Shown one piece after another: positions 1,128 through 64,000 of a DNA stretch of 64,000 bases. Below the pieces are notes generated by a model. That model ran no database searches. It was not told the origin of the DNA and saw only the letters and a program-made list of their open reading frames with translations. Origin of the DNA: Ignavibacteria bacterium UBA2360. Its GTDB lineage: Bacteria; Bacteroidota; Ignavibacteria; Tepidaquicellales; OLB5. The position numbers and the translations under genes are program-made. Location: contig DDTQ01000012.1 of NCBI GenBank assembly GCA_002344125.1, positions 424,763 to 488,762 of the forward strand, written 5' to 3'. Positions within the stretch are counted from its first letter, which is position 1. Every line of letters begins with the position of its first letter.

Positions 1128-1187
1128 TTGCTCACAAGAAAATTACGAAGTAATTTTCGAAGTCCCGCCATGGCGGGATTACTCATT
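1128..1187 (-). repeat. Double-hairpin element, copy 1 (GAAAATTAC-GAA-GTAATTTTC then TCCCGCC-ATG-GCGGGA)
   Basis: About 90 percent identical by eye to 63468..63527; overlaps the stop codon of 1179..1643. Confidence 0.8.
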
Positions 1188-2786: not shown

Positions 2787-3090
2787 CCTCTCCCTGCCCG
2801 TTTTTATTGAGCAGGGGAGGAATTTAAAGTAAGGGTGAAAATTCTTTTGCTGATATGTTCACTTTGCTGTGATCTTGATTACTCTTCCCCCCCTTTCCCT
2901 CCTGCTAGGAGTAGGGCAGAAGGTGAGGTCAGCTTTTATTCAGATTACTTTGCCACCCTCTCCCTTGACTGCCTAAGCAGTTTTTTTTGGAGATGGCCAG
3001 GGGTCAAACCAATCATTGACCCCAACTCGATAATCTTGAATATTTTGCCCCCCTCTCCTGCTAGGAGAGGGGTAGGGGGTGAGGTTTATC
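2787..3090 (+). repeat. Cluster of four C-arm/G-arm hairpin elements in the capsid-downstream spacer
   Basis: 2787-2820 CCTCTCCCTGC…GCAGGGGAGG; 2887-2930 …CCCTCCTGCTAGGAGTAGGGCAGAAGGTGAGGTC; 2951-3010 with mini-palindrome GACTGCCTAAGCAGT at 2967-2981; 3047-3090 CCCCTCTCCTGCTAGGAGAGGGGTAGGGGGTGAGGTTTATC. Confidence 0.75.
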
Positions 3091-4202: not shown

Positions 4203-4225
4203 TAAGATAATTAATCAACTTCTAA

Positions 4226-4260
4226 TTGTTCATTGATCATTGTTCATTGTTCATTGTTAA
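4226..4260 (-). repeat. 7-nt-period array, 5 units (plus strand TTGTTCA TTGATCA TTGTTCA TTGTTCA TTGTTAA) spanning the scaffold gene stop codon
   Basis: The stop TGA (4246..4244) lies inside unit 3. The last two units encode …NNEQ. Confidence 0.85.
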
Positions 4261-16984: not shown

Positions 16985-17054
16985 AATGTGCAATGTGCAA
17001 TGAGCAATGAGCAATGAGCAATGAGCTATGAGCTATAAACAATGAAAAATGAAT
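16985..17054 (+). repeat. 7-nt-period microsatellite, 10 units (AATGTGC x2, AATGAGC x4, TATGAGC, TATAAAC, AATGAAA, AATGAAT)
   Basis: Counted base by base; begins 5 nt after the stop at 16978..16980. Confidence 0.9.
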
Positions 17055-31408: not shown

Positions 31409-31457
31409 CAATTACGAATTACTAATTACAAATTATGAGTTATGGATTGTGGGTCAT
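31409..31457 (+). repeat. 7-nt-period array, 7 units (CAATTAC GAATTAC TAATTAC AAATTAT GAGTTAT GGATTGT GGGTCAT)
   Basis: Starts on the base after the upp stop codon. Confidence 0.85.
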
Positions 31458-31560
31458 GACTCAAGAACTATTCTGCAGCAAGCAGCTTGACTAGTAAAAG
31501 TTACTGATTTTGACAATAGCCCACGACTTCAGTCGTGGGAACATAGAACGTGAACAACTG

Positions 31561-34154: not shown

Positions 34155-35237
34155 ATGAAAACAAAAATCACTGCATTATTTATTTTGTGTTTACTCACAT
34201 CAGCGTTTTTATGGAATTTTAACGATTTATCTGCCCTCAAGGGTGAAATGCATTCGGCAGATACTCTCATCTACCCGCAGGAAAAACACTTCAAGAATAT
34301 GCAGATGTTAACCAACGGCGGCGAAAATGCCGAAGCTTATTTTTCCTTTGATGGCTCAAAAATAATATTCCAGGCAACAGGTGAATATGAATGCGATCAG
34401 ATATTTATCATGAATCCCGATGGTTCCGGAAAGCATCTTGTAAGCACAGGTAAGGGCAGAACAACCTGTTCATACTTTTACCCCGATGGCAAGAGCATAC
34501 TGTACGCTTCAACGCATTTAGGCGGCGATATGTGTCCCCAGAAGCCTGATCACTCCAAAGGTTATGTGTGGGCTTTGTATTCTGATTACGATATTTTTAA
34601 AGCTGATCTTGATGGCTCTAACCCGGTTAAACTAACCGACGTTAAAGGTTACGACGCCGAAGCTACCGTTTCACCAAAAGGCGATAAAATTATCTTCACT
34701 TCAACCCGTAACGGAGATATTGATCTTTATTCAATGAATCTCGACGGCTCTGATGTTAAGCAGCTTACAAATATTCCCGGTTACGATGGCGGCGCGTATT
34801 ATTCCTATGACGGGACAATGATAGTTTTTCGCGCATCAAGATTTGATGACCCCGCTAAGCTGAAGGAATACCAGGATCTCCTTGCCGAAGGGCTTATCAG
34901 GCCCGGGCAGCTTGAAATCTACGTTATGAATGCAGACGGTTCAAACATCCGGCAGGTAACAAATAACGGTGCCGCAAACTTCGGGCCGTACTTCTTCCCC
35001 GATGGAAAAAGGATAATCTACTGCTCAAACCAGGATGACCCCAAAGGCAGAAATTTTGATCTGTATATGATAAACGTTGATGGTACAGGCAATGAAAGAA
35101 TAACTTATAACGATACTTTTGACGGTTTCCCAATGTTCTCACTTCACGATGGCGGCAAAAAATTCGTGTTCTGCTCAAACCGCTTCAACGCTAAACAGGG
35201 CGAAACCAACGTTTTCATCTGCGATTGGGTAGAATAG
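34155..35237 (+). CDS. TolB-like PD40 beta-propeller protein (secreted)
   Basis: Repeated …PDG..I.F.S.R.G..D.Y.MN.DGS… blades; signal peptide. Confidence 0.75.
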   Translation: MKTKITALFILCLLTSAFLWNFNDLSALKGEMHSADTLIYPQEKHFKNMQMLTNGGENAEAYFSFDGSKIIFQATGEYECDQIFIMNPDGSGKHLVSTGKGRTTCSYFYPDGKSILYASTHLGGDMCPQKPDHSKGYVWALYSDYDIFKADLDGSNPVKLTDVKGYDAEATVSPKGDKIIFTSTRNGDIDLYSMNLDGSDVKQLTNIPGYDGGAYYSYDGTMIVFRASRFDDPAKLKEYQDLLAEGLIRPGQLEIYVMNADGSNIRQVTNNGAANFGPYFFPDGKRIIYCSNQDDPKGRNFDLYMINVDGTGNERITYNDTFDGFPMFSLHDGGKKFVFCSNRFNAKQGETNVFICDWVE

Positions 35238-35243
35238 GCATAA

Positions 35244-35285
35244 TGTCAAATGTCAAAGGTCAAAGGTCAAATGTCAAATGTAAAA
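35244..35285 (+). repeat. 7-nt-period array, 6 units (TGTCAAA TGTCAAA GGTCAAA GGTCAAA TGTCAAA TGTAAAA)
   Basis: Begins 7 nt after the stop at 35235..35237. Confidence 0.9.
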
Positions 35286-35362
35286 CGTGATGCTACTAAG
35301 CAAATGTGCTGAACTGCAAAATGCGCAGAATGCCAAAATTCAAAATGAATACTTTTGAACAA

Positions 35363-35413
35363 ATTCCCCTCTCGAGAGGGGTGGCTGGCTTTAGCCAGTC
35401 GGGGTGTGTAAAA
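35363..35413 (+). repeat. ATTCCCCTC…GAGGGGTG[inner hairpin]CGGGGTGTGTAAA element, copy 1
   Basis: Second copy at 40469..40520 has a different inner hairpin (GCTGGCTTTAGCCAGT versus TTCCGATTTATCGGAA). Confidence 0.6.
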
Positions 35414-35448
35414 ACTAAATATTGATTTCCCGCGCAGTCTTTTTTGTC

Positions 35449-35582
35449 CCCGCAGAGTCTCTTCAAACAAGGACTCTGCGATAGCTCAATCACTGTGAAA
35501 ATATAATGCTTTTCGTTGGAGTGCATTGACTAAGTCAATGCTTCGTCCGGAATCCGTAGGAGTTACAAATATATAGATTTTT
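35449..35582 (+). repeat. About 130-nt direct repeat, unit 1
   Basis: Core ATCACTGTGAAAATATAATGCTTTTCGTTGGAGTGCATTGAC is identical in both units. Confidence 0.8.
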
Positions 35583-36054
35583 TCACAGCGGAGTCTCTTC
35601 AAAGAAGGACTATGCGATTGCTCCATCACTGTGAAAATATAATGCTTTTCGTTGGAGTGCATTGACTGTGCTTGCCCGCCTCGGGCGTGGTCAATGCTCC
35701 ATCCAGACTCCGCAGGAGTCAAAGATTCATAGATCTTCACAAGAATAATATTATATGACTCCGTAGGAGTCACATATTTATAGAATAGCAAACAAATGTG
35801 TATACGACTCCATCGGAGTCGCACATAAACTGCAGTAAATTGTTCATTATGTCAACATAGCTCCCCTGTTTTCTAAGTAAATCTGTAAATAGCCCCGTAG
35901 GGGTGGTATGTTTGTAGCACGCAGTAATAAAGTTTTTCAGAGCTCCGTAGGAGCGGCATAAAAATTCAAATGTTTCCAAATCCCGAAGGGATGACATTAT
36001 TGTAACAAACCCGCAAAAAAAAATCAAAAAAAACCCGAAGGGTGATATAATAAT
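35551..36054 (+). repeat. Array of 8 hairpin-plus-tail elements (stem 4-6 bp, loop 3 nt, then ACATATTTATAGAA-like tail)
   Basis: Copies start at 35551, 35706, 35757, 35806, 35893, 35942, 35981 and 36033, all on the + strand. The last ends at the ATG of the M28 peptidase gene. Confidence 0.7.
35584..35740 (+). repeat. About 130-nt direct repeat, unit 2, with an extra hairpin inserted in the GCATTGAC/GTCAATGC loop
   Basis: TAA loop of unit 1 is replaced by TGTGCTTGCCCGCCTCGGGCGTG. Confidence 0.8.
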
Positions 36055-37839
36055 ATGAACACAAAAATTAAATTTCTATCCGCATCACTGCTGCTTATAT
36101 TGTTTGCGGCATTTGTAAACCCATCGGGTAACGATCCGAAGATCACCGAAGGTGAAGTATCAGACCACATCAAATACCTATCCAGCGATGAGCTCGGCGG
36201 GCGTTTCCCCGGCACAGATGGGGATAAACTCACGGTTGATTACATCACAGGCGAATTCAAAGAATACGGTCTGAAGCCCGCCGGTGAAAAAGGTTACCTG
36301 CAGCCATTCGATTATATCAGCGAAATAAAACTCGGCACCGGCAACTATGTCGCCTTCGGCAACGGTGAAGTTCTTAAGGGCGCAGGTGATGAATTCACAC
36401 CCGTTTACCTATCCTCAAACGGCTCCGCCTCCGGGAATATGATATTTGTGGGTTACGGCATTAACGCGCCGGAACTTAATTACAACGATTATGCCGGGCT
36501 TGATCTCAATGGCAAAATTGCCGTGATGCTGATGTTCTCACCAGGCTACAACAATCCCCATGATAACCCGTTCAGCAAGTATGAGCGCCTGCGCGTTAAA
36601 TGCGCTGCCGCAAAAGAGCAGGGCGCTGCGGGTATAATTGTAATTAAAGGACCCGAAACAGGGGAGGAAGAACTCATAAAACTCAGAATGTCAGGTCCGG
36701 GTGAAAATATTGAGCTGCCAGTTATGAATCTGAAACGGGTTTACATCGAAACATTCTTAAAAGATAGAAAGCTCACACAGATCCAAAGAGAAATTGATAG
36801 CCTTAGGGTACCGCAGTCATTTGAATTGAACCAAACAGCGCAGATAAAAACTGATCTTAACAGAATTAAAGCTGAAACGAATAATGTTATCGGCATGATA
36901 GAAGGCAGCGATGCTGCCCTGAAAAATGAATATATCCTGATTGGCGCGCACATGGATCACTTAGGCGACGGCTTAAAATACGGTTCATTACACGATAGCC
37001 ACATTGCCGAAATTCACAACGGCGCCGATGATAACGCCTCCGGCGTTGCAGGCATTTTGGAACTTGCCGAATATTACGCCGCCATCAAAAAGAAACTCAA
37101 ACGCAGCATAATATTTATGACCTTCAGCGGCGAAGAAGCGGGATTGATCGGCTCTGCTTACTTCACAAAAAGCGACCTGATGAAAAAGTACAATATCGTT
37201 ACAATGATAAATCTCGATATGGTAGGCAGGCTCACAGATAAAAAGCTTACCATTGGCGGTACAGGCACATCATCAATATGGCAGGGCTTGCTTGATTCAT
37301 TAAACAAAACCTACAATTTTGCTGCAGCCTATAACAAAGATGGATTTGGTCCAAGTGACCATGCCAGCTTTTACGCGAAAGATATTCCCGTGTTATTTTT
37401 CTTTACCGGGCTGCATAAGGATTACCACAAGCCAAGCGATGATTGGGAACACATTAATTCCGCCGGCGAAGCTGAAATACTCAATATGGTCGCATCGATC
37501 GTAAACTACATAAACTCTCAGCCGGTAAAACCTGATTTCATCAAAGTTACCGAAGAGAAAAAGGAAACCAACATGGGCTTCCGTGTTACGCTGGGCGTTA
37601 TACCTGATTATTCCAGCACCAAAGAGGGTCTGGAGCTATCGGGAGTAAAAGCCGGAGGTATTGCTGAAAAAGCGGGTCTGATGGCAGGGGATATCATCAC
37701 AAAGCTCGGACAGTATGAAATAAAAAATATCTATGATTACACCGATGCGCTTACAAAATTCAAACCCGGCGAAGAAGCAGAAGTAACATATCTCCGCGGA
37801 ACCGAAACCACAACCGTGAGGATCACCTTCGCAAAGTAG
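36055..37839 (+). CDS. M28 family metallopeptidase with PA and C-terminal PDZ domains
   Basis: HMDHLGDG, GADDNASGVAGILELA, FSGEEAGLIGS; PDZ-like GIAEKAGLMAGDIITKLG. Confidence 0.85.
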   Translation: MNTKIKFLSASLLLILFAAFVNPSGNDPKITEGEVSDHIKYLSSDELGGRFPGTDGDKLTVDYITGEFKEYGLKPAGEKGYLQPFDYISEIKLGTGNYVAFGNGEVLKGAGDEFTPVYLSSNGSASGNMIFVGYGINAPELNYNDYAGLDLNGKIAVMLMFSPGYNNPHDNPFSKYERLRVKCAAAKEQGAAGIIVIKGPETGEEELIKLRMSGPGENIELPVMNLKRVYIETFLKDRKLTQIQREIDSLRVPQSFELNQTAQIKTDLNRIKAETNNVIGMIEGSDAALKNEYILIGAHMDHLGDGLKYGSLHDSHIAEIHNGADDNASGVAGILELAEYYAAIKKKLKRSIIFMTFSGEEAGLIGSAYFTKSDLMKKYNIVTMINLDMVGRLTDKKLTIGGTGTSSIWQGLLDSLNKTYNFAAAYNKDGFGPSDHASFYAKDIPVLFFFTGLHKDYHKPSDDWEHINSAGEAEILNMVASIVNYINSQPVKPDFIKVTEEKKETNMGFRVTLGVIPDYSSTKEGLELSGVKAGGIAEKAGLMAGDIITKLGQYEIKNIYDYTDALTKFKPGEEAEVTYLRGTETTTVRITFAK

Positions 37840-38095
37840 TATGGGAAATTCGCGTTTGCCTTGTTTCTAAGGCAAAAGCGGGCATCAAATCAGTATTATA
37901 TTAAAGGAACGCCATCTCAGCGTTCCTTTTTTTTATGTCACGCCGTTTGTCATACCCCGCCCTCAGCAGTCATGCGCGCAGGCGGGTATCCAGATGATAA
38001 TTATGAAATTTCGAAAATCTATGAAGTGCTATGTTCAAAAGAATGATAACTTCATTCACATTATTTAATAAATATATTATCCTTTACATCATAAA

Positions 38096-38237
38096 ACCGC
38101 GAAGCGGTGAAATTATTGTAGATTGTTATCCAAAACGACTTTCAAAACCCCAAAGGGGTGACATTATAATTTCACCCCTTCGGGGTTCGTAAAATGTTTG
38201 ATATTTCTATCTACAATAATATCATCCCTTCGGGATT
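38096..38237. repeat. Four hairpin-plus-tail elements (three on +, one on -)
   Basis: ACCGCGAAGCGGTGAAATTATTGTAGATT; CCCCAAAGGGGTGACATTATAATTTC; ACCCCTTCGGGGTTCGTAAAATGTTTG; minus strand TCCCGAAGGGATGATATTATTGTAGA. Confidence 0.7.
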
Positions 38238-38490
38238 ATTTTAAGTCTTCAGTTAGATAATATCTTAACAAAGAAATTCTATACAACCAAAAAAAATGAA
38301 ACACCGAAAAGCCGAAGTGACTCACATATCTGCCCGCAGCAGTCATGCGCGCCTTTTACAATCCCCCATGAAAAGTCGCAGAACTGGCTTTGACAGTGGG
38401 ATTGGATTGATCTGGTACTCCGTTAATCTGAAATCTATAATAATACTTGAATCCCCGACAATTTTAATGGGGGATTTAATATAACCCAAC

Positions 38491-38519
38491 AAAAAAGGAG
38501 CCCTTTAGCTCCTTTTTTT
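38491..38519. terminator. Bidirectional Rho-independent terminator A6-GGAGC-CCTTTA-GCTCC-T7
   Basis: Lies between convergent genes. Confidence 0.7.
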
Positions 38520-38530
38520 ATTTACCTTTT

Positions 38531-38589
38531 TGCGTTCAAGAAATCCCGTAGGGATTTCGCAGTCCCGCCAAAGGCGGGATCACATTCAT
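38531..38589 (-). repeat. Double-hairpin stop-codon-abutting element, variant copy
   Basis: GAAATCCC-GTA-GGGATTTC then AGTCCCGCC-AAA-GGCGGGAT; ends 3 nt from the stop at 38593. Confidence 0.6.
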
Positions 38590-38592
38590 CGT

Positions 38593-39099
38593 TTACTTCA
38601 ATATCTTTATCCCTGTCGCCATAATCCTGTACATCTTCTGTGGACCCACAACTAAATTCGGGTCAGTACCCGCTTCTTCGGCGAAGTGTTTTGCCTGGTC
38701 TTCGGTAATTTCCCTGATGCTGAAAACGCCTTCAACTACAGCAACCTTGCCTGTGATATCCATTTCCTTTGGCATAATGAACTTATGCATCGTTAATGCG
38801 CGGATATTATTCGTACCGTCGCTAATGACAGTCCAGCAGCCGCCTGTGCGGCATAACTCGCTCATGTTTCCTTTTAATACAACGGTCTTGCCCACAAACG
38901 CTGATGTATCAGCATAAATATCGCCAACGCTGATAACTTTAAGTTCACCGTTTATATCGGTGCCGTATAACGTGCCGTCCGGAAGCTCTTTAGCTTCGAC
39001 CTTTTCATCATCTTTTTTATTTTCTTCGCCGCTCTGCGCACTCGCTGAAAGCGATGCGAAAAATAATACTAATGGCAGTAAATACTTTATAAATTTCAT
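38593..39099 (-). CDS. DUF4920-like secreted protein
   Basis: …CRTGGCWTVISDG…, …EDQAKHFAEEAGTDP…; I prefer the start MKFIKYLLPL at 39099. Confidence 0.6.
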   Translation of the reverse strand: MKFIKYLLPLVLFFASLSASAQSGEENKKDDEKVEAKELPDGTLYGTDINGELKVISVGDIYADTSAFVGKTVVLKGNMSELCRTGGCWTVISDGTNNIRALTMHKFIMPKEMDITGKVAVVEGVFSIREITEDQAKHFAEEAGTDPNLVVGPQKMYRIMATGIKILK

Positions 39100-39220: not shown

Positions 39221-39343
39221 TATCAACCCTGCCCCTAAAGGGGGGCTGGGGTCACAATTATCAACCCTCCCCCTTTAAGGGGGGCTGGGGTCACAATTAT
39301 CAACTCTCCCCCTTTAAGGGGGAGCCGGAGGGGGTCACAAAAA
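39221..39343 (+). repeat. Three head-to-tail 39-46-nt units TATCAACCCTCCCCCTTTAAGGGGGGCTGGGGTCACAAT
   Basis: Units at 39221-39258, 39259-39297 and 39298-39343; each contains a C-arm/G-arm hairpin. Confidence 0.85.
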
Positions 39344-40428: not shown

Positions 40429-40468
40429 ACTATTTACTTTATAAGTACCATTTTCCTGGTTTCAATAT

Positions 40469-40520
40469 AATTCCCCTCTGGCGAGGGGTGTTCCGATTTA
40501 TCGGAACGGGGTGTGTTAAC
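40469..40520 (+). repeat. AATTCCCCTC…GAGGGGTG[inner hairpin]CGGGGTGTGTTAA element, copy 2
   Basis: See 35363..35413. Confidence 0.6.
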
Positions 40521-40579
40521 TCAGATTCTGTAAAAATACACACCGCTTGGTATGTATGATGCATCATAGCCATAGGTAA

Positions 40580-43330: not shown

Positions 43331-43404
43331 AAAAGGTGTAGGTTAACAATACCACCTATACGTTACAAAAGCACCTTATGGTTTACAAAACCCACCATGG
43401 GTTA
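43331..43404 (-). repeat. Three to four hairpin-plus-TTTGTAA-tail elements on the minus strand
   Basis: Minus strand: ACCCATGGTGGGTTTTGTAA / ACCATAAGGTGCTTTTGTAA / CGTATAGGTGGTATTGTTAA. Confidence 0.55.
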
Positions 43405-44879: not shown

Positions 44880-44997
44880 TTATTTTATGTTTTTTGTACA
44901 TAATTCCCGCGAAAGCGGGAATCTAATTGTGCATTTTGTTCTCATTACGAAAGGGAGCAAATCATAACATATAGATTGCAATGCTAAATAATACTTT

Positions 44998-45167
44998 TGT
45001 ACCGCCAAACGACTGCGGTGGCAGTCAGGGACTTTCTCACCGTTACAATGTTACCATTACTAGAATCTAACTTAGCGCGCCTGACTGGAAACTGCAAAGC
45101 AGTTAACAGTCCTGACTTGCAACTGCGTAGCAGTTGAAAGTTCTACCAATTCCGCTGTAATCCTATT
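44998..45167 (-). repeat. tRNA-Leu-derived unit 1 (not a functional tRNA): D-arm to 3-prime end retained, hairpins inserted in the D- and T-loops, extra 31-nt subrepeat
   Basis: 44998-45080 is identical to 45168-45250. T-loop TTCGAGT is replaced by …GACTGCCACCGCAGTC…; the anticodon stem is disrupted. Confidence 0.8.
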
Positions 45168-45306
45168 TGTACCGCCAAACGACTGCGGTGGCAGTCAGGG
45201 ACTTTCTCACCGTTACAATGTTACCATTACTAGAATCTAACTTAGCGCGCTTGACTTGCAACTGCGTAGCAGTTGAAAGTTCTACCAATTCCGCTGTAAT
45301 CCTATT
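45168..45306 (-). repeat. tRNA-Leu-derived unit 2
   Basis: GGAATTGGTAGA[ACTTTCAACTGCTACGCAGTTGCAAGTCAA]GCGCGC…AACGGT[GAGAAAGTCCCTGACTGCCACCGCAGT]CGTTTGGCGGTACA. Confidence 0.8.
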
Positions 45307-45308
45307 TG

Positions 45309-45392
45309 TACCGCCAAACGGACTCGAACCGTTACAATGTTGCCATTACTAGATTTTGAGTCTAGCGCGTCTACCAATTCCGCCATGGCGGC
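45309..45392 (-). tRNA. tRNA-Leu (anticodon CAA), class II with long variable arm
   Basis: Manual fold: acceptor GCCGCCA/TGGCGGT, D-arm GCGGAATTGGTAGACGC, anticodon arm CTAGA-CTCAAAA-TCTAG, variable arm AATG-GCAA-CATT, T-arm AACGG-TTCGAGT-CCGTT. CCA is not encoded. Confidence 0.85.
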
Positions 45393-45497: not shown

Positions 45498-45746
45498 CTA
45501 TTTGCCTATCAAACTTCTCAAAAACTTTCTTCCGGCTGATAACTTCAATTCTCTTTCACGCCGCATCGCGGCTGATTTATCAGGCTGCTCTTCGTTATAT
45601 ATCATCCTGTACGGCCTGTATGGTTTTGTTGATTCAACATATCCATCACAGTTCTGCTTAAATCTTCTGTCAAGATTATCCGTGTGACCCACATAAATCC
45701 TGTCTCTGGTTTCAGAATACAGGCAATAAACGAAGAATTTTCGCAT
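45498..45746 (-). CDS. Small GIY-YIG nuclease family protein
   Basis: 82 aa; FVYCLYS…RIYVGHTDNLDRR…, downstream Arg/Glu (RRERELK). Confidence 0.85.
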   Translation of the reverse strand: MRKFFVYCLYSETRDRIYVGHTDNLDRRFKQNCDGYVESTKPYRPYRMIYNEEQPDKSAAMRRERELKLSAGRKFLRSLIGK

Positions 45747-47614: not shown

Positions 47615-48267
47615 TTCTTCCCGCCGGACTTTCTGTTCGTGCCGCTTCGCTTTGACCGGGTATTTGCCGAGCCATGTTTTCTTACGGGTTTTTTCTTTGG
47701 TGTGGCCTTAACCTCCGGTTCTGTAACCTGCTGCTCTACTACATTCTCTTCCAGTGCTTTAGGTAACTGTATTTCTTCTTCTATAATAACTTCCTCTGTA
47801 ATAACTTCCTCTGTAACAACTTCCTCTGTAGCAACTTCCTCTGTAATAACTTCCTCTGTAATAACTTCTGTAACTTTCAGGTCTTTAGTTAGAATTTTAT
47901 CGCTTCCTGTTTTAATGATCTCTTTAATAATTATATCTTCTTCAATTACATTGCCTTTGGGTATATAAGCAAATTTTTTCCCGCTTACGAAGTTTATCAT
48001 CTTGAAAAGCAGTGGTGAGAAAGTTATTGCTGTAAGCACAGCTATCAAAAGCGCAGCATTTAAACCATAATAAATATCAAACTTCAAAACATATGTAAAA
48101 GTTAATATCTGTAAAGAAATGAATGAGAGAACTAAAACTCCTGCAAAAAAGGGATTAGTTAATTTATTGAATTTTAAGCGGAAATTACTGCTCAGAATCC
48201 CCGGCACTAATATTATCAACGCCGCAAGGAAAGGCAAAGCCTGCAATATTGTAATTTGCTCACTCAT
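47611..48267 (-). CDS. Membrane protein with an acidic (V/I)TEEV pentapeptide repeat and a basic tail
   Basis: 3 N-terminal TM; VTEVITEEVITEEVATEEVVTEEVITEEVIIEEE encoded by 15-nt repeats at 47786..47872. Confidence 0.5.
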   Translation of the reverse strand: MSEQITILQALPFLAALIILVPGILSSNFRLKFNKLTNPFFAGVLVLSFISLQILTFTYVLKFDIYYGLNAALLIAVLTAITFSPLLFKMINFVSGKKFAYIPKGNVIEEDIIIKEIIKTGSDKILTKDLKVTEVITEEVITEEVATEEVVTEEVITEEVIIEEEIQLPKALEENVVEQQVTEPEVKATPKKKPVRKHGSANTRSKRSGTNRKSGGKK

Positions 48268-55073: not shown

Positions 55074-55274
55074 AATCCCGCTTAAGCGGGACCAGCAAAA
55101 AAAGCTGGAATGACAGATATCAAAGCTCAAATATCAAATATTTTTAACAAATGATTAAACATTTTTGTCATCCTGAAGAGTCCCGCGAAAACAACGCGGG
55201 ACGATAAAGGAGCCGGACGACAATCTCGGATTCTATACTTCGCCTCCACTTGCATTCATCTCCATTCAAACACT

Positions 55275-55351
55275 GACTCCAGCGGAGTCAAACATTTATA
55301 GAACAATTGTAAAATAAAAAAAACGACCCCATAGGGGTCGCACTTAGAAAC
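55275..55351 (+). repeat. Two hairpin-plus-tail elements
   Basis: GACTCCAGCGGAGTCAAACATTTATAGAAC; GACCCCATAGGGGTCGCACTTAGAAAC. Confidence 0.65.
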
Positions 55352-55390
55352 TTTATTTGTCTTACTGAGTCCAATCAAAGTAATATATCA

Positions 55391-55427
55391 TTTCCCACGT
55401 TTCACATTTCACATTTCACATTTCACA
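55391..55427. repeat. 7-nt-period array (TTTCACA x4 preceded by TTTCCCACG)
   Basis: Counted directly from the sequence. Confidence 0.85.
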
Positions 55428-55599
55428 TCAATAAATTCCTCTATTAACCATTTCCTGTTTCACCTCTGGCTAGGCGATCATAACTAGAGCTGTTATTCCA
55501 AAAACAGTACCTTTAATACATTCAACTGATTATTGTATATTATTATTCAATTCTTCACAATTGTGACATTTATTTTGTAATCTTTATGAATACTTAAAT

Positions 55600-60015: not shown

Positions 60016-60075
60016 TTGTTCACTAGAAAATTTCAGAGTAATTTTCGAAGTCCCGCCTTGGCGGGATTGCCATTT
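60016..60075 (-). repeat. Double-hairpin element, copy 2 (first hairpin degenerate)
   Basis: …GTAATTTTCGAAGTCCCGCCTTGGCGGGATTGCC; lies 8 nt from the stop at 60078. Confidence 0.65.
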
Positions 60076-60077
60076 GT

Positions 60078-61205
60078 TTACCCATTAGCTTTTCGCATCT
60101 TCAATGCTGCAATGCCCGTGAAAAATACCGCGAAGGCAAGCAGACTCAATATCTGTTTCCAGAATGCTTCAATTCCAACACCCTTTAAAATAATCGCTCT
60201 TAAAATAATAATGTAAAACTTAGCCGGTGTCACATTTGTAAGTATCTGAATAGGCCAGGGCATGCTTTCTATCGGAAAAATAAATCCCGAAAGTATAAAT
60301 GTAGGCAGCATTGTTGCTATAGATGCTATCTGAAAGGCCACCTGCTGCGAATCAGATACCGATGATATAAATATACCAAGGCTTAATGTGGCGATTAAAA
60401 AAATAATTGTTGTGAAAAGAAGAGTCAGGAAATTTCCCTTAATTTCCAAACCGAACGCGATATTACTTATGAACAACGTTAACACCGCGACAAATAACGC
60501 CACAACCGTATAGGGGATAGTCTTACCAAGTATCAGTTCAATTGAGCTCATAGGCGAGACCCTCAGCTGCTCCATTGAACCAAGTTCCTTTTCGCGCACA
60601 ATTGAAAGCGTTGTAAGGATCACTCCCGTCGTTATGAGTATCATGCAAAACAGACCGGGTATAAGGAATTTTGTCGTATCCAGATCAGGGTTATACCAGA
60701 ACAGCGGCTGTGGATCTATTGGTATAAATGAACTTACTCCCGTCCGTTCAAGGAATTCCTGTGTGATCCGGCTGTTATAAAATCGGGTTGCTGATGTTAC
60801 ATAATTCATTATAACCGTTGCGGTATTTCCGTCAACACCATCCACCAAAAACTGTATCTGCACATTTTTACCCGCACGCATATCCGAAGTAAAGTTCGCA
60901 GGGAAAACCATCACACATTGCGCCTTCTTTTCATCAAGCCAGCTGTTAATTTCATGTTCACTCCTTATATATCCAGCCACATTAAAGTAACTGGAGCTTT
61001 CAAGCATTGCAATGAAATCACGGGTTTCTTCTGAGTTGTCATTATTCTTCACAGCTATCTTGACATGTTTTACATCCAGCGATAGTGCATAACCAAAGAG
61101 CATCAACAGAAACACAGGGAAGAAAAATATCAGGTAAAGCGTCCTTGCGTCACGCCTTATCTGCCTGAATTCCTTCTTAACCAATGCGTATATTCTGTTT
61201 ATCAT
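60078..61205 (-). CDS. ABC-2 type transporter permease
   Basis: 375 aa; N-terminal KKEFRQIRRD, 6 TM, ABC-2 signature region. Confidence 0.85.
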   Translation of the reverse strand: MINRIYALVKKEFRQIRRDARTLYLIFFFPVFLLMLFGYALSLDVKHVKIAVKNNDNSEETRDFIAMLESSSYFNVAGYIRSEHEINSWLDEKKAQCVMVFPANFTSDMRAGKNVQIQFLVDGVDGNTATVIMNYVTSATRFYNSRITQEFLERTGVSSFIPIDPQPLFWYNPDLDTTKFLIPGLFCMILITTGVILTTLSIVREKELGSMEQLRVSPMSSIELILGKTIPYTVVALFVAVLTLFISNIAFGLEIKGNFLTLLFTTIIFLIATLSLGIFISSVSDSQQVAFQIASIATMLPTFILSGFIFPIESMPWPIQILTNVTPAKFYIIILRAIILKGVGIEAFWKQILSLLAFAVFFTGIAALKMRKANG

Positions 61206-62491: not shown

Positions 62492-62535
62492 TTCCCCCCT
62501 TCTCCTTTCAGGAGAAGGGGACGGGGGTTGAGGTT
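62492..62535 (+). repeat. C-arm/G-arm hairpin + GGGGGTTGAGGTTT tail element abutting the stop at 62536
   Basis: CCCCTTCTCC-TTTCA-GGAGAAGGGG-AC-GGGGGTTGAGGTTTTA; same family as 3047..3090. Confidence 0.7.
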
Positions 62536-63467: not shown

Positions 63468-63527
63468 TTGCTCACAAGAAAATTACGGAGTAATTTTCGA
63501 AGTCCCGCCTTGGCGGGATTGCTCATT
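63468..63527 (-). repeat. Double-hairpin element, copy 3
   Basis: TTGCTCACAAGAAAATTACGGAGTAATTTTCGAAGTCCCGCCTTGGCGGGATTGCTCATT; overlaps the HlyD stop codon (63523..63525). Confidence 0.8.
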
Positions 63528-64000
63528 GAAAATTGATCTTCGCATCTGCCGGCAAACCCGGTTTAAGCTCAAACTGCGGATTAGGGATCTCTATCTTGAC
63601 CGCAAAAACTAACTTAGTACGTTCATCGGGTGTCTGTATATTCTTCGGAGTAAATTCAGCCTCCGGTGATATAAAAATTATCTTTCCTTTGTATTCCTTA
63701 TCTTTAAATGCGTCGATCTTTATTTCCGCTTCCTGTCCCAGCTTCACCTTGGCAAGTTCGGTTTCAGGAATGTAAATTACAAGATTCACTGTCTCAAGAT
63801 TGCTTAACCTTAATAACGATCCGCCCATAACTGCATTTTCACCTTCTTCTACAAACTTTTTGGATACAAAACCATCGGAAGGGGAATATACTTTGCAGTC
63901 TTCAATATTCTGTTTCAATAAGTCAACCATTGATACAGCCTTTTTCAGATTTGCCTGGGCCTGCTCAATTTCTTCGGGTCTTATGATTGTTTTTACTTTC
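63523..64000 (-). CDS. HlyD-family membrane fusion / periplasmic adaptor protein, N-terminally truncated by the window edge
   Basis: The frame is open beyond the track's internal start to position 64000 (…KVKTIIRPEEIEQAQANLKKAVSMVDLL…); C-terminal beta-barrel …IPNPQFELKPGLPADAKINFQ. Confidence 0.8.
   Translation of the reverse strand, partial: KVKTIIRPEEIEQAQANLKKAVSMVDLLKQNIEDCKVYSPSDGFVSKKFVEEGENAVMGGSLLRLSNLETVNLVIYIPETELAKVKLGQEAEIKIDAFKDKEYKGKIIFISPEAEFTPKNIQTPDERTKLVFAVKIEIPNPQFELKPGLPADAKINFQ

What the first reader, a model, noticed from the sequence alone, without database searches (positions are those of the whole stretch)
35551..36054. Array of eight degenerate hairpin-plus-tail elements filling an 800-nt spacer; the same family occurs at three other loci in gene-sense orientation
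Each element has a 4-6-bp GC stem with a 3-nt loop (for example GACTCC-GTA-GGAGTC or TCCC-GAA-GGGA), followed by an A/T-rich tail with a recognisable consensus. Example tails are ACATATTTATAGAA, TGACATTATTGTAACA, TGGTATGTTTGTAGCA and AAACATTTATAGAAC. Eight copies lie 39-157 nt apart between 35551 and 36054, and the last ends at the ATG of the M28 peptidase gene. More copies lie at 38096-38237, 55275-55351 and, on the minus strand, 43331-43404. Twelve of the thirteen plus-orientation copies and all minus-strand copies match the direction of the upstream gene. Stems vary while keeping pairing, so structure is conserved rather than sequence. The layout superficially resembles a repeat-spacer array, but the repeats are too degenerate for CRISPR. 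Possible roles are stacked weak terminators, RNA stability elements, or protein-binding sites.
Basis: seen in the sequence. Interest (0 to 1): 0.55.

Follow-up and report, generated by a model that had tools for sequence, protein, structure and literature searches.

The report
REP-like hairpin repeats of an IS200-type transposase
The spacer is filled with a cluster of small mobile-DNA hairpin repeats that, in other bacteria, flank a small single-strand DNA transposase gene. This transposase subgroup had been reported to have no such repeats.

Summary
The elements are real. The window holds 14 copies of one family: a 5-bp GC stem, a G-N-A triloop and a conserved 13-nt tail, with core AAYCCC-GAA-GGGRT-GAnATwATTATAG. 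Eight lie at 35548-36060, four at 38093-38239 (two inverted) and two at 55273-55351. The claimed minus-strand copies at 43331-43404 are not supported.

A pattern scan of species-representative genomes found the same core in at least 118 loci. Most are Bacteroidota and Ignavibacteria, with others in Planctomycetota, Nitrospirota, Chloroflexota and Poribacteria. Copies are about 95% intergenic, occur in both orientations, and usually form arrays with a 45-54-nt period.

In 16 of 158 pattern-selected loci, and in 5 of 5 loci chosen from the protein side, the repeats flank a 153-aa IS200-like Y1 (HUH) transposase gene. Upstream copies usually share the gene's orientation and downstream copies are usually inverted, as in an E. 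coli REPtron. The proteins carry DH[IV]H, WQ and Y-x3-Q-x2-HH. This is the signature of TnpAY1 subclass 1.2, which Quentin et al. 2018 listed as having no REPs.

The orthologous spacer in relatives holds 0, 0 or 2 copies, against 8 here. My best reading is a BIME-like cluster of REP elements amplified on single-stranded DNA. It is not a terminator stack or a CRISPR array. No transposase gene lies in the window.

The parts
35548..35580 (+). e1: imperfect hairpin GGAATCC-GTA-GGAGTT with tail ACAAATATATAGATTT. It lies at the 3' end of the first copy of a 136-156-nt duplicated unit.
   Evidence: Sequence; CM 32.0 bits, a training member; repeat families D2/D3. The stem is weak when folded as DNA.
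35704..35736 (+). e2: GACTCC-GCA-GGAGTC with tail AAAGATTCATAGATCT. It lies at the 3' end of the second copy of the duplicated unit.
   Evidence: CM 34.4 bits; external PWM 13.1 bits; DNA fold -5.2 kcal/mol, z -3.25.
35755..35787 (+). e3: TGACTCC-GTA-GGAGTCA with tail CATATTTATAGAATA. It is the first half (REP1) of an 'a-type' direct doublet with e4.
   Evidence: CM 41.1 bits; external PWM 27.5. The same doublet architecture flanks tnpA in L132 and L129.
35804..35836 (+). e4: CGACTCC-ATC-GGAGTCG with CACATAAACTG. It is the second half (REP2 type) of the doublet, 49 nt after e3, and its loop is not GNA.
   Evidence: CM 15.0 bits only. It resembles the REP2 hairpins CGACCCC-GTA-GGGGTCG of L129, L125 and e14. 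DNA fold -6.9 kcal/mol.
35889..35921 (+). e5: CCCC-GTA-GGGG with tail TGGTATGTTTGTAGCACG.
   Evidence: CM 34.3 bits; external PWM 33.3.
35939..35971 (+). e6: GCTCC-GTA-GGAGC with a degenerate tail GGCATAAAAATTCAAAT, 50 nt after e5.
   Evidence: CM 31.9 bits; external PWM 13.9.
35977..36009 (+). e7: ATCCC-GAA-GGGAT with tail GACATTATTGTAACAAA. It is the copy closest to the cross-phylum consensus.
   Evidence: CM 37.3 bits; external PWM 42.2. The core is identical to array units in the Flavipsychrobacter locus L041. An orthologous copy is present in L165.
36029..36060 (+). e8: ACCC-GAA-GGGT with tail GATATAATAATATGAAC. The tail contains the ATG (36055) of the M28 peptidase gene.
   Evidence: CM 22.6 bits, E 0.003, not a training member. 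An orthologous copy abuts the ATG in L165 (AACCCCGAAGGGGTGAAATTATAAAATG).
38093..38125 (+). e9: ACCGC-GAA-GCGGT with tail GAAATTATTGTAGATTG.
   Evidence: CM 38.6 bits; external PWM 28.3.
38144..38176 (+). e10: ACCCC-AAA-GGGGT with tail GACATTATAATTTCACC. Its tail is shared head-to-head with e11.
   Evidence: CM 35.7 bits; external PWM 33.6.
38157..38189 (-). e11: an inverted copy, ACCCC-GAA-GGGGT with tail GAAATTATAATGTCACC when read on the minus strand.
   Evidence: CM 36.1 bits on the minus strand; external PWM 33.2.
38207..38239 (-). e12: an inverted copy, ATCCC-GAA-GGGAT with tail GATATTATTGTAGATAG when read on the minus strand, 50 nt from e11.
   Evidence: CM 39.0 bits on the minus strand; external PWM 38.6; pattern match.
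55273..55305 (+). e13: TGACTCC-AGC-GGAGTCA with tail AACATTTATAGAACA. It is REP1 of an a-type doublet with e14.
   Evidence: CM 32.0 bits; external PWM 14.0. It is conserved at the orthologous site in the relative L125, where the loop is GTA.
55323..55351 (+). e14: CGACCCC-ATA-GGGGTCG with CACTTAGAAAC. It is REP2 of the doublet, 50 nt after e13.
   Evidence: CM 16.3 bits; conserved in L125 with loop GTA; DNA fold -7.9 kcal/mol, z -4.7.

Best explanation
The 817-nt spacer is a BIME-like cluster of REP-type repeats.

Anatomy. Each unit is a DNA hairpin followed by a conserved tail of about 13 nt:
- The stem is 5 bp: an A-T pair, a Y-R pair and three C-G pairs.
- The loop is a G-N-A triloop closed by a C-G pair.
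- The tail reads GAnATwATTATAG.
- Units usually sit about 51 nt apart, as direct doublets and longer arrays.

Shown:
- The same elements occur across many bacterial phyla.
- In other genomes they bracket a 153-aa IS200-like Y1/HUH transposase gene of TnpAY1 subclass 1.2.
- In most of those loci the repeat tails point towards the gene from both sides.
- Copy number differs between orthologous sites in related species.

Inferred by homology with IS608/ISDra2 TnpA and E. coli TnpA-REP:
- When the DNA is single-stranded, for example on the lagging-strand template, the element-sense strand folds.
- The transposase dimer binds the hairpin or hairpins and cuts and rejoins in or next to the conserved tail.
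- This copies units to new intergenic sites and amplifies them locally into arrays.

In this window no transposase gene is present. The array is therefore acted on in trans from elsewhere in the genome, or it is a decaying relic.

Any effect on the flanking genes would be a by-product. Examples are a hairpin in the M28 5' leader (e8 carries the start codon) and 3'-end hairpins.
For: Family and structure:
- The family is real and structured: covariance model and external PWM.
- On 147 distinct copies, 110 cells show changes on both sides of a pair, against 34 in shuffles and 0-8 in slid controls. Pair 5:15 is C-G 77 / U-A 63.
- Loop position G9 is 90% and A11 is 93% conserved on one strand only.
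- C-GNA-G is the very stable DNA mini-hairpin loop (PMC13037366, PMC3201870).

Distribution:
- At least 118 genome loci carry the core, with 488 copies, of which 26 lie inside long ORFs.
- 91% of copies have a neighbour within 200 nt, and the same-strand spacing peaks at 45-54 nt.

Transposase link:
- Pfam Y1_Tnp, E 1e-22 to 1e-25, for 5 of 5 array-embedded ORFs tested.
- tblastn finds the gene in 11 of 118 genome loci and 5 of 40 metagenome loci. By my estimate about 0.2% of random 8-kb pieces would hold a single-copy gene.
- The nearest upstream copy is co-oriented in 8 of 8 loci, and the nearest downstream copy is inverted in 11 of 12, often overlapping the stop codon.
- Invariant D-H-[IV]-H, WQ and Y-I-x-x-Q-E-x-H-H motifs match subclass 1.2 (PMC6006769).

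Mobility:
- The orthologous spacer holds 8, 2, 0 and 0 copies in the window, L165, L166 and L167.
- The neighbouring spacer is arranged + + - - in the window, - - - + + in L165, and is empty in L166.
Against: - No tnpA gene lies in the 64-kb window, and I could not examine the rest of this genome.
- No binding or cleavage experiment exists for subclass 1.2 proteins, so the single-strand cut-and-paste step rests on homology. The best solved relative is ISDra2 TnpA, at E 2e-05 only.
- The canonical REP tag (5' GTAG or CGTC next to the foot) is absent.
- The doublets are direct rather than inverted, unlike BIMEs and REPINs.
- Some tnpA loci (L172, L169) do not show the simple 'upstream same, downstream inverted' layout.
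- The loci were selected by the repeat pattern, so copy statistics from them are biased towards good copies.
- All 14 window copies are sense to the upstream gene. That would also fit an RNA-level role.
Confidence: 0.78

Rival explanations
1. The elements work mainly at the RNA level. In this reading they are stacked weak terminators, 3'-end stabilisers that block exonucleases, or leader structures that regulate the flanking genes.
For: - All 14 window copies are sense to the gene on their 5' side.
- e8 carries the M28 start codon, and this arrangement is conserved in L165.
- e13 and e14 are better conserved than the sequence downstream of them between the window and L125.
- E. coli REPs are known to stabilise mRNA (reference list of PMC6006769).
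- The simple scan called several copies terminator-like.
Against: - There is no T-run in the consensus tail.
- Canonical terminators sit beside the elements at 37903-37929 and 38491-38518.
- Across genomes, tandem-gene gaps hold 111 sense and 85 antisense copies, and 26 of 56 gaps hold both orientations.
- Related species have 0 to 8 copies at the same site.
- The fixed layout around a transposase gene has no RNA-level rationale.
- No Rfam family matches.
Confidence: 0.1
2. The elements are the ends, or solo-end and miniature derivatives, of a true IS200-type insertion sequence that transposes as a unit. In this reading they are not a REP system served in trans by a resident, domesticated gene.
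For: - The proteins pass the NCBIfam IS200/IS605 equivalog cut-off (66 bits against 55) and fail the REP-associated transposase model (25.9 against 80).
- More than 80% protein identity links Ignavibacteria, Planctomycetota and Bacteroidota, which suggests horizontal spread.
- The gene with one repeat on each side forms a compact unit of about 600 bp.
Against: - The flanking copies are inverted. IS200/IS605 end hairpins lie on one strand (PMC3333891).
- Repeats far outnumber the genes and form long arrays without a gene.
- The two genes in L073 are divergent paralogues, not identical copies: 79% and 76% identical to the reference, and one has DYIH in place of DHIH.
- Quentin et al. report a low copy number (mean 1.7) and 36% mean identity within genomes for subclass 1.2 (PMC6006769).
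Confidence: 0.1
3. The elements are duplex-DNA binding sites (iterons or operators) for a regulator or nucleoid protein, or a degenerate CRISPR-like array.
For: - The roughly 51-nt spacing is regular.
- The layout looks like repeats and spacers.
- One locus (L124) has a Cas7 gene next to copies.
Against: - Compensatory changes keep an intrastrand stem.
- The loop is asymmetric and conserved on one strand.
- The 'spacers' are only about 17-20 nt and are themselves repeated.
- No cas genes lie in the window, and I saw none in the gene lists of the relatives fetched.
- The units are degenerate in the window (mean column identity 70%).
Confidence: 0.02

Closest known systems
REP/BIME elements and the REPtron of E. 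coli (TnpA-REP / RAYT; Nunvar 2010, PMC2817692; Ton-Hoang 2012, PMC3333891)
   Same: - They are short extragenic palindromic repeats with an adjacent conserved tag.
- They are mostly clustered.
- They are dispersed in intergenic DNA in both orientations.
- They bracket a Y1/HUH transposase gene in inverted orientation, which is the REPtron layout.
- Copy number varies between relatives.
   Different: - The associated protein belongs to class 1 (subclass 1.2, Y-x3-Q-x2-HH), not class 2 (Y-x3-NP).
- The stem is a short perfect 5-bp stem with a GNA triloop, not a 30-40-nt imperfect palindrome with an essential mismatch.
- The conserved tag is a 13-nt 3' tail, not a 5' GTAG tetranucleotide at the foot.
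- The units pair as direct doublets about 51 nt apart, not as inverted REP/iREP pairs.
- The same core sequence is shared across phyla.
REPINs with group 2/3 RAYTs (Bertels and Rainey 2011; RAREFAN preprint 10.1101/2022.05.22.493013)
   Same: Both are non-autonomous short repeats served by a low-copy Y1 transposase, and in both the doublet appears to be the unit.
   Different: REPINs are inverted doublets that fold into one long hairpin. They are mostly inherited vertically, and each lineage has its own sequence. Here the doublets are direct, and both the repeat core and the protein (more than 80% identity) are shared between phyla.
Subterminal hairpins of IS200/IS605 elements (IS608, ISDra2)
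   Same: - The protein is the closest family by sequence.
- The hairpin is small.
- A conserved sequence lies some 10 nt 3' of the hairpin foot, like the IS608 right-end cleavage site (my recollection of the IS608 literature).
   Different: - In those elements the end hairpins lie on one strand and bound a unit that moves as a whole. Here the flanks are inverted.
- The repeats vastly outnumber the genes.
- They form gene-free arrays.
TnpAY1 subclass 1.2 as described by Quentin et al. 2018 (PMC6006769)
   Same: - The length is the same (about 148-153 aa).
- The DH[IV]H, WQ and Y-x3-Q-x2-HH motifs match.
- A conserved C-terminal tail is present.
- Copy number is low.
- Bacteroidetes are among the hosts.
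   Different: [quoted passage not shown] Here every gene examined is flanked by the hairpin-plus-tail repeats. The host range seen here also extends well beyond Cyanobacteria and Bacteroidetes.

Membership tests
REP / REPtron system (RAYT-associated repetitive extragenic palindromes) | The repeat is short, palindromic (hairpin-forming) and confined to extragenic DNA. | tested here: met
   All 14 window copies are intergenic. Of 488 copies elsewhere, 26 lie inside long ORFs. The stem is supported by covariation.
REP / REPtron system (RAYT-associated repetitive extragenic palindromes) | There are many copies per genome, mostly clustered (BIME-like). | tested here: inconclusive
   There are 14 copies in 64 kb, in three clusters. 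Elsewhere 91% of copies have a neighbour within 200 nt. Whole-genome counts could not be made.
REP / REPtron system (RAYT-associated repetitive extragenic palindromes) | A conserved GTAG (or CGTC) tetranucleotide lies directly 5' of the hairpin foot. | tested here: not met
   The 5' side has only AA (positions 3-4). The conserved tag is a 3' tail, TGAnATwATTATAG, in which [A/G]TAG lies about 10 nt from the foot.
REP / REPtron system (RAYT-associated repetitive extragenic palindromes) | The repeats flank a single Y1 transposase gene in inverted orientation. | tested here: met
   This is met in related genomes: 8 of 8 upstream copies are co-oriented and 11 of 12 downstream copies are inverted, and 5 of 5 protein-first loci have flanking copies. 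It is not met inside the window, which has no tnpA.
REP / REPtron system (RAYT-associated repetitive extragenic palindromes) | The cognate protein is a class 2 TnpA-REP/RAYT (Y-x3-NP motif; NCBIfam NF047646). | tested here: not met
   The protein scores 25.9 bits against a cut-off of 80 for NF047646 and 66 against 55 for the IS200 model. Its motif is Y-I-x-x-Q-E-x-H-H.
REP / REPtron system (RAYT-associated repetitive extragenic palindromes) | The transposase binds and cleaves the repeat on single-stranded DNA. | not testable with these tools
   This needs EMSA and cleavage assays. It is inferred only from homology to ISDra2 TnpA and TnpA-REP (PMC3333891).
IS200/IS605 insertion sequence | The element carries tnpA between left and right subterminal hairpins on the same strand and recurs as a whole unit. 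| tested here: not met
   No tnpA lies in the window. In other genomes the flanks are inverted, and the arrays lack genes.
CRISPR array | Near-identical repeats of 24-48 nt are separated by unique spacers of similar length, usually with cas genes nearby. | tested here: not met
   Mean column identity among window copies is 70%. Linkers are about 17-20 nt and are repeated in other genomes. No cas genes appear in the window's ORF map or in the Pfam list for L001.
Intrinsic (Rho-independent) terminator | A GC-rich hairpin is followed directly by a run of T/U on the transcribed strand. | tested here: not met
   The consensus tail is GAYATTATTATAG, with no T-run. True hairpin-plus-T-run sites lie at 37903-37929 and 38491-38518. 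Antisense copies are common.
Known structured RNA family (Rfam 15) | The sequence matches a curated covariance model. | tested here: not met
   Only a tRNA reaches a gathering score in the window. Permissive scans of 35200-38650 and of the L041 array give only weak, unrelated sub-threshold hits.

The most novel reading that the evidence does not exclude
TnpAY1 subclass 1.2 is an IS200-like Y1/HUH protein family found in thousands of Bacteroidota, Ignavibacteriota, Planctomycetota and other genomes, and it was described as having no associated repeats. In this reading it is the engine of its own, previously unrecognised REP system. That system would be a 27-nt GNA-triloop mini-hairpin plus 3' tail, deployed as direct doublets about 51 nt apart and as long arrays. 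Repeat and protein would both be conserved almost unchanged across phyla. This would make it a third kind of Y1-repeat partnership, beside IS200/IS605 elements and class 2 RAYT-REP/REPIN systems. The unusual cross-phylum conservation would hint at frequent horizontal transfer or a host-level function.
Probability: 0.5. Interest if true: 0.6.

Novelty: new variant of a known kind. Interest (0 to 1): 0.55.

Why it matters
REP sequences and their domesticated transposases are the best-studied example of long-lived, non-autonomous mobile DNA in bacteria. Almost all of that work rests on Proteobacteria and on class 2 RAYTs.

If the link shown here holds, it matters in four ways:
- A class 1 (IS200-like) subgroup that was thought to lack repeats would have a cognate repeat family in environmentally dominant phyla.
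- It would give a defined minimal substrate of 27-33 nt for biochemistry on this protein family.
- It would explain many long 'empty' intergenic spacers and contig breaks in Bacteroidota and Ignavibacteria assemblies.
- It would allow a test of whether the fixed doublet spacing reflects binding by a transposase dimer.

For annotation of this window, the practical message is that the 817-nt spacer is repeat DNA. It is not a regulatory RNA locus or a CRISPR array.

Tried and rejected
- Rfam at gathering and permissive thresholds gave no family.
- Near-identical strains (L002, L004-L006) have no differences at all between 34271 and 40376, so they give no information on gain or loss.
- The mini-ORF idea (RTG-AYA-TWA-TTA-TAG inside the tail) was rejected. 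Positions 22-23 often make the third codon a stop, and there is no codon-like conservation.
- A sigma-70 or Bacteroidetes-type promoter reading of the tail or its complement was rejected. The promoter scan found no excess (12 found against 9.5 expected), and arrays of 10-20 copies make no sense as promoters.
- A long-range pairing (CTGTGAAAATAT with ATTTTTTCACAG) around e1 belongs to a local 136-156-nt duplication. It is not a feature of the family.
- I tried to reach this organism's other contigs with an a-type pattern scan of metagenome contigs. It returned 40 loci from other organisms plus one relative (L125), and none from the window genome. Whether this genome has the tnpA gene therefore stays open.
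- Two viral-contig scans found 0 and 1 contig, so there is no link to phages.
- Text searches found no paper that contains the core sequence or that links REPs to these phyla.
Full report
**1. What is in the window**

The window is identical to contig DDUA01000022.1 of assembly GCA_002344545.1. M28 peptidase homologues place the organism in the Ignavibacteria.

The gap between a Tricorn/PD40-like gene (34155-35237) and an M28 peptidase gene (36055-37839) is 817 nt. It contains eight small hairpins with a GC-rich stem and a 3-nt loop. Each is followed by a related A/T-rich tail.

When the copies are lined up on the loop, no gaps are needed. The similarity then runs from two bases before the stem to about 13 bases after it.

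A covariance model of 11 copies was run with filters off on all 64 kb. It returned:
- those 11 copies;
- e8 at 36029-36060 (22.6 bits), e14 at 55323-55351 (16.3) and e4 at 35804-35836 (15.0);
- nothing else distinguishable from noise.

A weight matrix built only from copies in other genomes still finds 10 window copies. Markov simulations give 0.16 on average. The family is therefore real, with 14 members in three intergenic gaps.

- The copies at 38157-38189 and 38207-38239 are inverted. Their GAA loop and tail read on the minus strand.
- The proposed minus-strand copies at 43331-43404 get no support.

**2. The same element in many phyla, in arrays**

A degenerate 23-nt pattern taken from the window copies was scanned against one genome per species. 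I estimated about 26 chance hits from the pattern's information content.

Most hits are in Bacteroidota (Dyadobacter, Flavobacterium, Chitinophagales, Saprospiraceae, Cyclobacteriaceae, Bacteroidales) and Ignavibacteria. Others are in Poribacteria, Nitrospirota, Chloroflexota, Planctomycetota, Verrucomicrobiota, Calditrichota and Cloacimonadota.

The model finds 337 matches in 100 of these loci. An iterated weight matrix finds 488 copies.

The consensus from 476 distinct copies is AAYCCC-GAA-GGGRT-GAnATwATTATAG. There is no conservation outside these 27 positions.

Pairing is maintained by compensatory change on 147 distinct model hits:

| Pair | Counts |
|---|---|
| 5:15 | C-G 77, U-A 63 |
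| 6:14 | C-G 117, U-A 27 |

In total, 110 cells changed on both sides, against 34 in shuffles and 0-8 when the partner columns are slid.

The loop is G (90%) - N - A (93%), closed by C-G, on one strand only. C-GNA-G is the unusually stable DNA mini-hairpin loop (PMC13037366, PMC3201870).

Other properties of the copies:
- About 95% are intergenic.
- 91% have a neighbour within 200 nt.
- Same-strand spacing peaks sharply at 45-54 nt (182 of 264 intervals, median 51). The window shows the same spacing (51, 49, 50, 52, 51, 50, 50 nt).
- Some genomes carry long arrays, for example about 20 units in Flavipsychrobacter, 12 in an Ignavibacteria MAG and 12 in a Cytophagales MAG.
- The linkers between units are themselves repeated, so these are tandem amplifications and not repeat-spacer arrays.

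No Rfam family matches.

**3. The link to a transposase**

In the Bacteroidales locus L050, a 153-aa ORF sits between five forward copies and two inverted copies. Five such array-embedded ORFs were tested against Pfam. All five are Y1_Tnp (IS200-like), with E values of 1e-22 to 1e-25.

tblastn finds close homologues in 11 of the 118 genome loci. It also finds them in 5 of 40 metagenome loci that were fetched with a second, 'a-type' pattern. For a low-copy 460-bp gene, I estimate that about 0.2% of random 8-kb pieces would contain it.

The layout is consistent:
- The nearest upstream copy has the gene's orientation in 8 of 8 cases.
- The nearest downstream copy is inverted in 11 of 12 cases, often overlapping the stop codon.
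- The tails therefore point at the gene from both sides.

L132 and L129 show this at sequence level: doublet (+), tnpA, doublet (-). They also show that the unit is a direct doublet of two different hairpins. The first hairpin carries the ...ACATTTATAGAA tail. The second, about 18 nt later, is CGACCCC-GTA-GGGGTCG. The window pairs e3+e4 and e13+e14 are exactly such doublets.

The loci above were chosen by the repeat, so I also started from the protein. All five have copies within about 50 nt on both sides. Two of these genomes (L169, L172) have more complex arrangements.

**4. Which transposase**

- The proteins pass NCBIfam's IS200/IS605 model (66 bits against 55). They fail the REP-associated transposase model (25.9 against 80).
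- The closest solved structure is ISDra2 TnpA.
- Ten sequences align with invariant D-H-[IV]-H, WQ and Y-I-x-x-Q-E-x-H-H, plus a conserved C-terminal tail.
- This is the signature that Quentin et al. 2018 give for TnpAY1 subclass 1.2 (DH[IV]H, WQ, YIKNQKEHH; median 148 aa).
- At least 7995 clusters of homologues exist at E<=1e-20. More than 80% identity links Ignavibacteria, Planctomycetota and Bacteroidota.

I found no paper in the searchable library that contains the core sequence or that links REPs to these taxa. The library is incomplete, so prior description elsewhere cannot be excluded.

**5. Evidence of turnover at this very site**

Gene order (RelA/SpoT, Tricorn-like, M28, DUF4920) is conserved in three relatives. 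The spacer before M28 compares as follows:

| Genome | M28 identity to window | Spacer length | Copies |
|---|---|---|---|
| Window | - | 817 nt | 8 |
| L165 | 80% | 213 nt | 2 |
| L166 | 78% | 286 nt | 0 |
| L167 | 71% | 83 nt | 0 |

In L165 the last copy abuts the ATG, as e8 does in the window.

The next spacer reads + + - - in the window and - - - + + in L165. It has none in L166.

By contrast, the doublet e13/e14 is retained at the orthologous site in L125, a relative with about 85-88% nucleotide identity. Only the loops differ there.

**6. Mechanism**

Shown:
- The anatomy of the unit and its covariation.
- Conservation of the loop on one strand only.
- The intergenic, array-forming, two-orientation distribution.
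- The fixed association with a Y1/HUH gene.
- Presence/absence variation among relatives.

Inferred, by homology with IS608/ISDra2 TnpA and with E. coli TnpA-REP, which binds and cuts REPs only on single-stranded DNA (PMC3333891):
- The element-sense strand folds when it is single-stranded.
- The enzyme recognises the hairpin and cuts and rejoins in or beside the conserved tail.
- This disperses units and amplifies them locally.
- The constant 51-nt doublet spacing may reflect a dimer that holds two hairpins. This is speculation.

The window itself has no tnpA. Its copies are more degenerate than many arrays elsewhere, so they may be maintained in trans or may be decaying. I could not decide between the two.

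**7. Rivals**

A primary RNA-level role (terminator or stabiliser) is disfavoured for these reasons:
- There is no T-run.
- Ordinary terminators lie nearby.
- Orientations are mixed relative to transcription: 111 sense and 85 antisense copies in tandem gaps, and 26 of 56 gaps are mixed.
- Copies turn over between relatives.

It remains possible as a secondary effect, especially for e8 in the M28 leader.

A true IS200-type element is disfavoured by the inverted flanks, the gene-free arrays and the divergent paralogues.

CRISPR and duplex operator readings fail on repeat degeneracy, short repeated linkers, absence of cas genes and stem covariation.

**8. Verdict**

The array is a BIME-like cluster of REP-type repeats that belongs to a widespread, cross-phylum family tied to IS200-like subclass 1.2 Y1 transposases.

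As a kind of thing it is known (REP with a Y1 transposase). It appears to be an undescribed variant in three respects: the class of protein, the GNA mini-hairpin with a 3' tail, and the direct doublets.

Noticed in passing
window 35242-35285; also 55117-55141, 55389-55428, 16985-17052, 4225-4258, 478-511: Runs of 7-nt tandem repeats lie in intergenic DNA in several places; the one at 35242 starts a few bases after the stop codon of the Tricorn-like gene (AATGTCA x6). The equivalent position in the relatives L165 and L166 carries a similar run (CAAATGTCAAAGCCCAAATGACAAAT). This looks like a conserved feature after the stop codon, of unknown role.
   Followed up: partly
window 1149-1182, 60037-60070, 63489-63522: There are three copies of AGTAATTTTCGAAG-TCCCGC-cttg-GCGGGA-TTGC. 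Each lies directly after the stop codon of a minus-strand gene (1179-1643, 60078-61205, 63523-63930). This is a separate hairpin repeat family tied to gene 3' ends.
   Followed up: no
window 3050-3085, 62496-62533, 2899-2925; related 35366-35409 and 40473-40515: Another repeat family has a CCCCTCTCC-loop-GGAGAGGGG hairpin followed by GGGGGTGAGG. A related form is CCCCTC-n4-GAGGGG plus a second hairpin plus CGGGGTGTGT. One member sits at the start of the spacer under study.
   Followed up: no
window 35442-35531 and 35578-35667 (with 35534-35581 and 35690-35737): A unit of 136-156 nt is duplicated in tandem at 91% identity. It contains three hairpins (GCAGAGTC...GACTCTGC, GCATTGAC-TAA-GTCAATGC, then e1 or e2). 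In the second copy an extra small hairpin, GCCCGCCTCGGGCG, is nested in the loop of the middle hairpin. In L165 and L166 the middle hairpin (GGAGTGCATTGAC-nnn-GTCAATGC) sits directly after the M28 stop codon, not upstream of the gene.
   Followed up: partly
window 55281-55283 and 55331; L125 aligned (A2): Between the window and the relative L125, the doublet e13/e14 is identical in its stems and in the e13 tail. The e13 loop differs at all three bases (AGC against GTA) and the e14 loop at one (ATA against GTA). Such concentrated change in a loop suggests loop-specific mutation, or conversion from another copy.
   Followed up: no
window 44989-45104 / 45158-45274 and 45113-45184 / 45252-45324; tRNA 45309-45392(-); ORF 45498-45746(-): Local duplications (94% and 98.6% identity) lie beside a tRNA gene. 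They carry their own AACTGC-GNA-GCAGTT hairpins, again with GNA triloops. An 82-aa GIY-YIG protein gene lies next to them.
   Followed up: no
window 31421-31510 and 40463-40521: These are the only two places where a second strain (L002, L004-L006; about 99% identical) has replaced sequence of a different length: 36 nt against 88, and 34 against 57. Both lie in intergenic hairpin-repeat regions of other families, so those families are turning over between strains.
   Followed up: partly
window 39221-39322 and 47775-47868: A 39-nt tandem repeat (2.6 copies, each with a CCCCC-TTTAA-GGGGG hairpin) and a 15-nt tandem repeat (CTTCCTCTGTAATAA, 6.3 copies) both lie in intergenic DNA.
   Followed up: no
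L073 2924-3388: One of two neighbouring subclass 1.2 transposase paralogues has DYIH in place of the invariant DHIH metal-binding motif. It may be catalytically dead even though it is still flanked by repeats.
   Followed up: no
window 36029-36060; L165 3974-4006: The 3' arm and tail of the last repeat (GGGTGA / GGGGTGA, then 8-9 nt, then ATG) place a Shine-Dalgarno-like sequence at canonical spacing before the M28 start codon. That sequence is sequestered in the hairpin, and the arrangement is conserved in a relative with 80% M28 identity. A repeat may have been co-opted as the gene's translation start region.
   Followed up: partly
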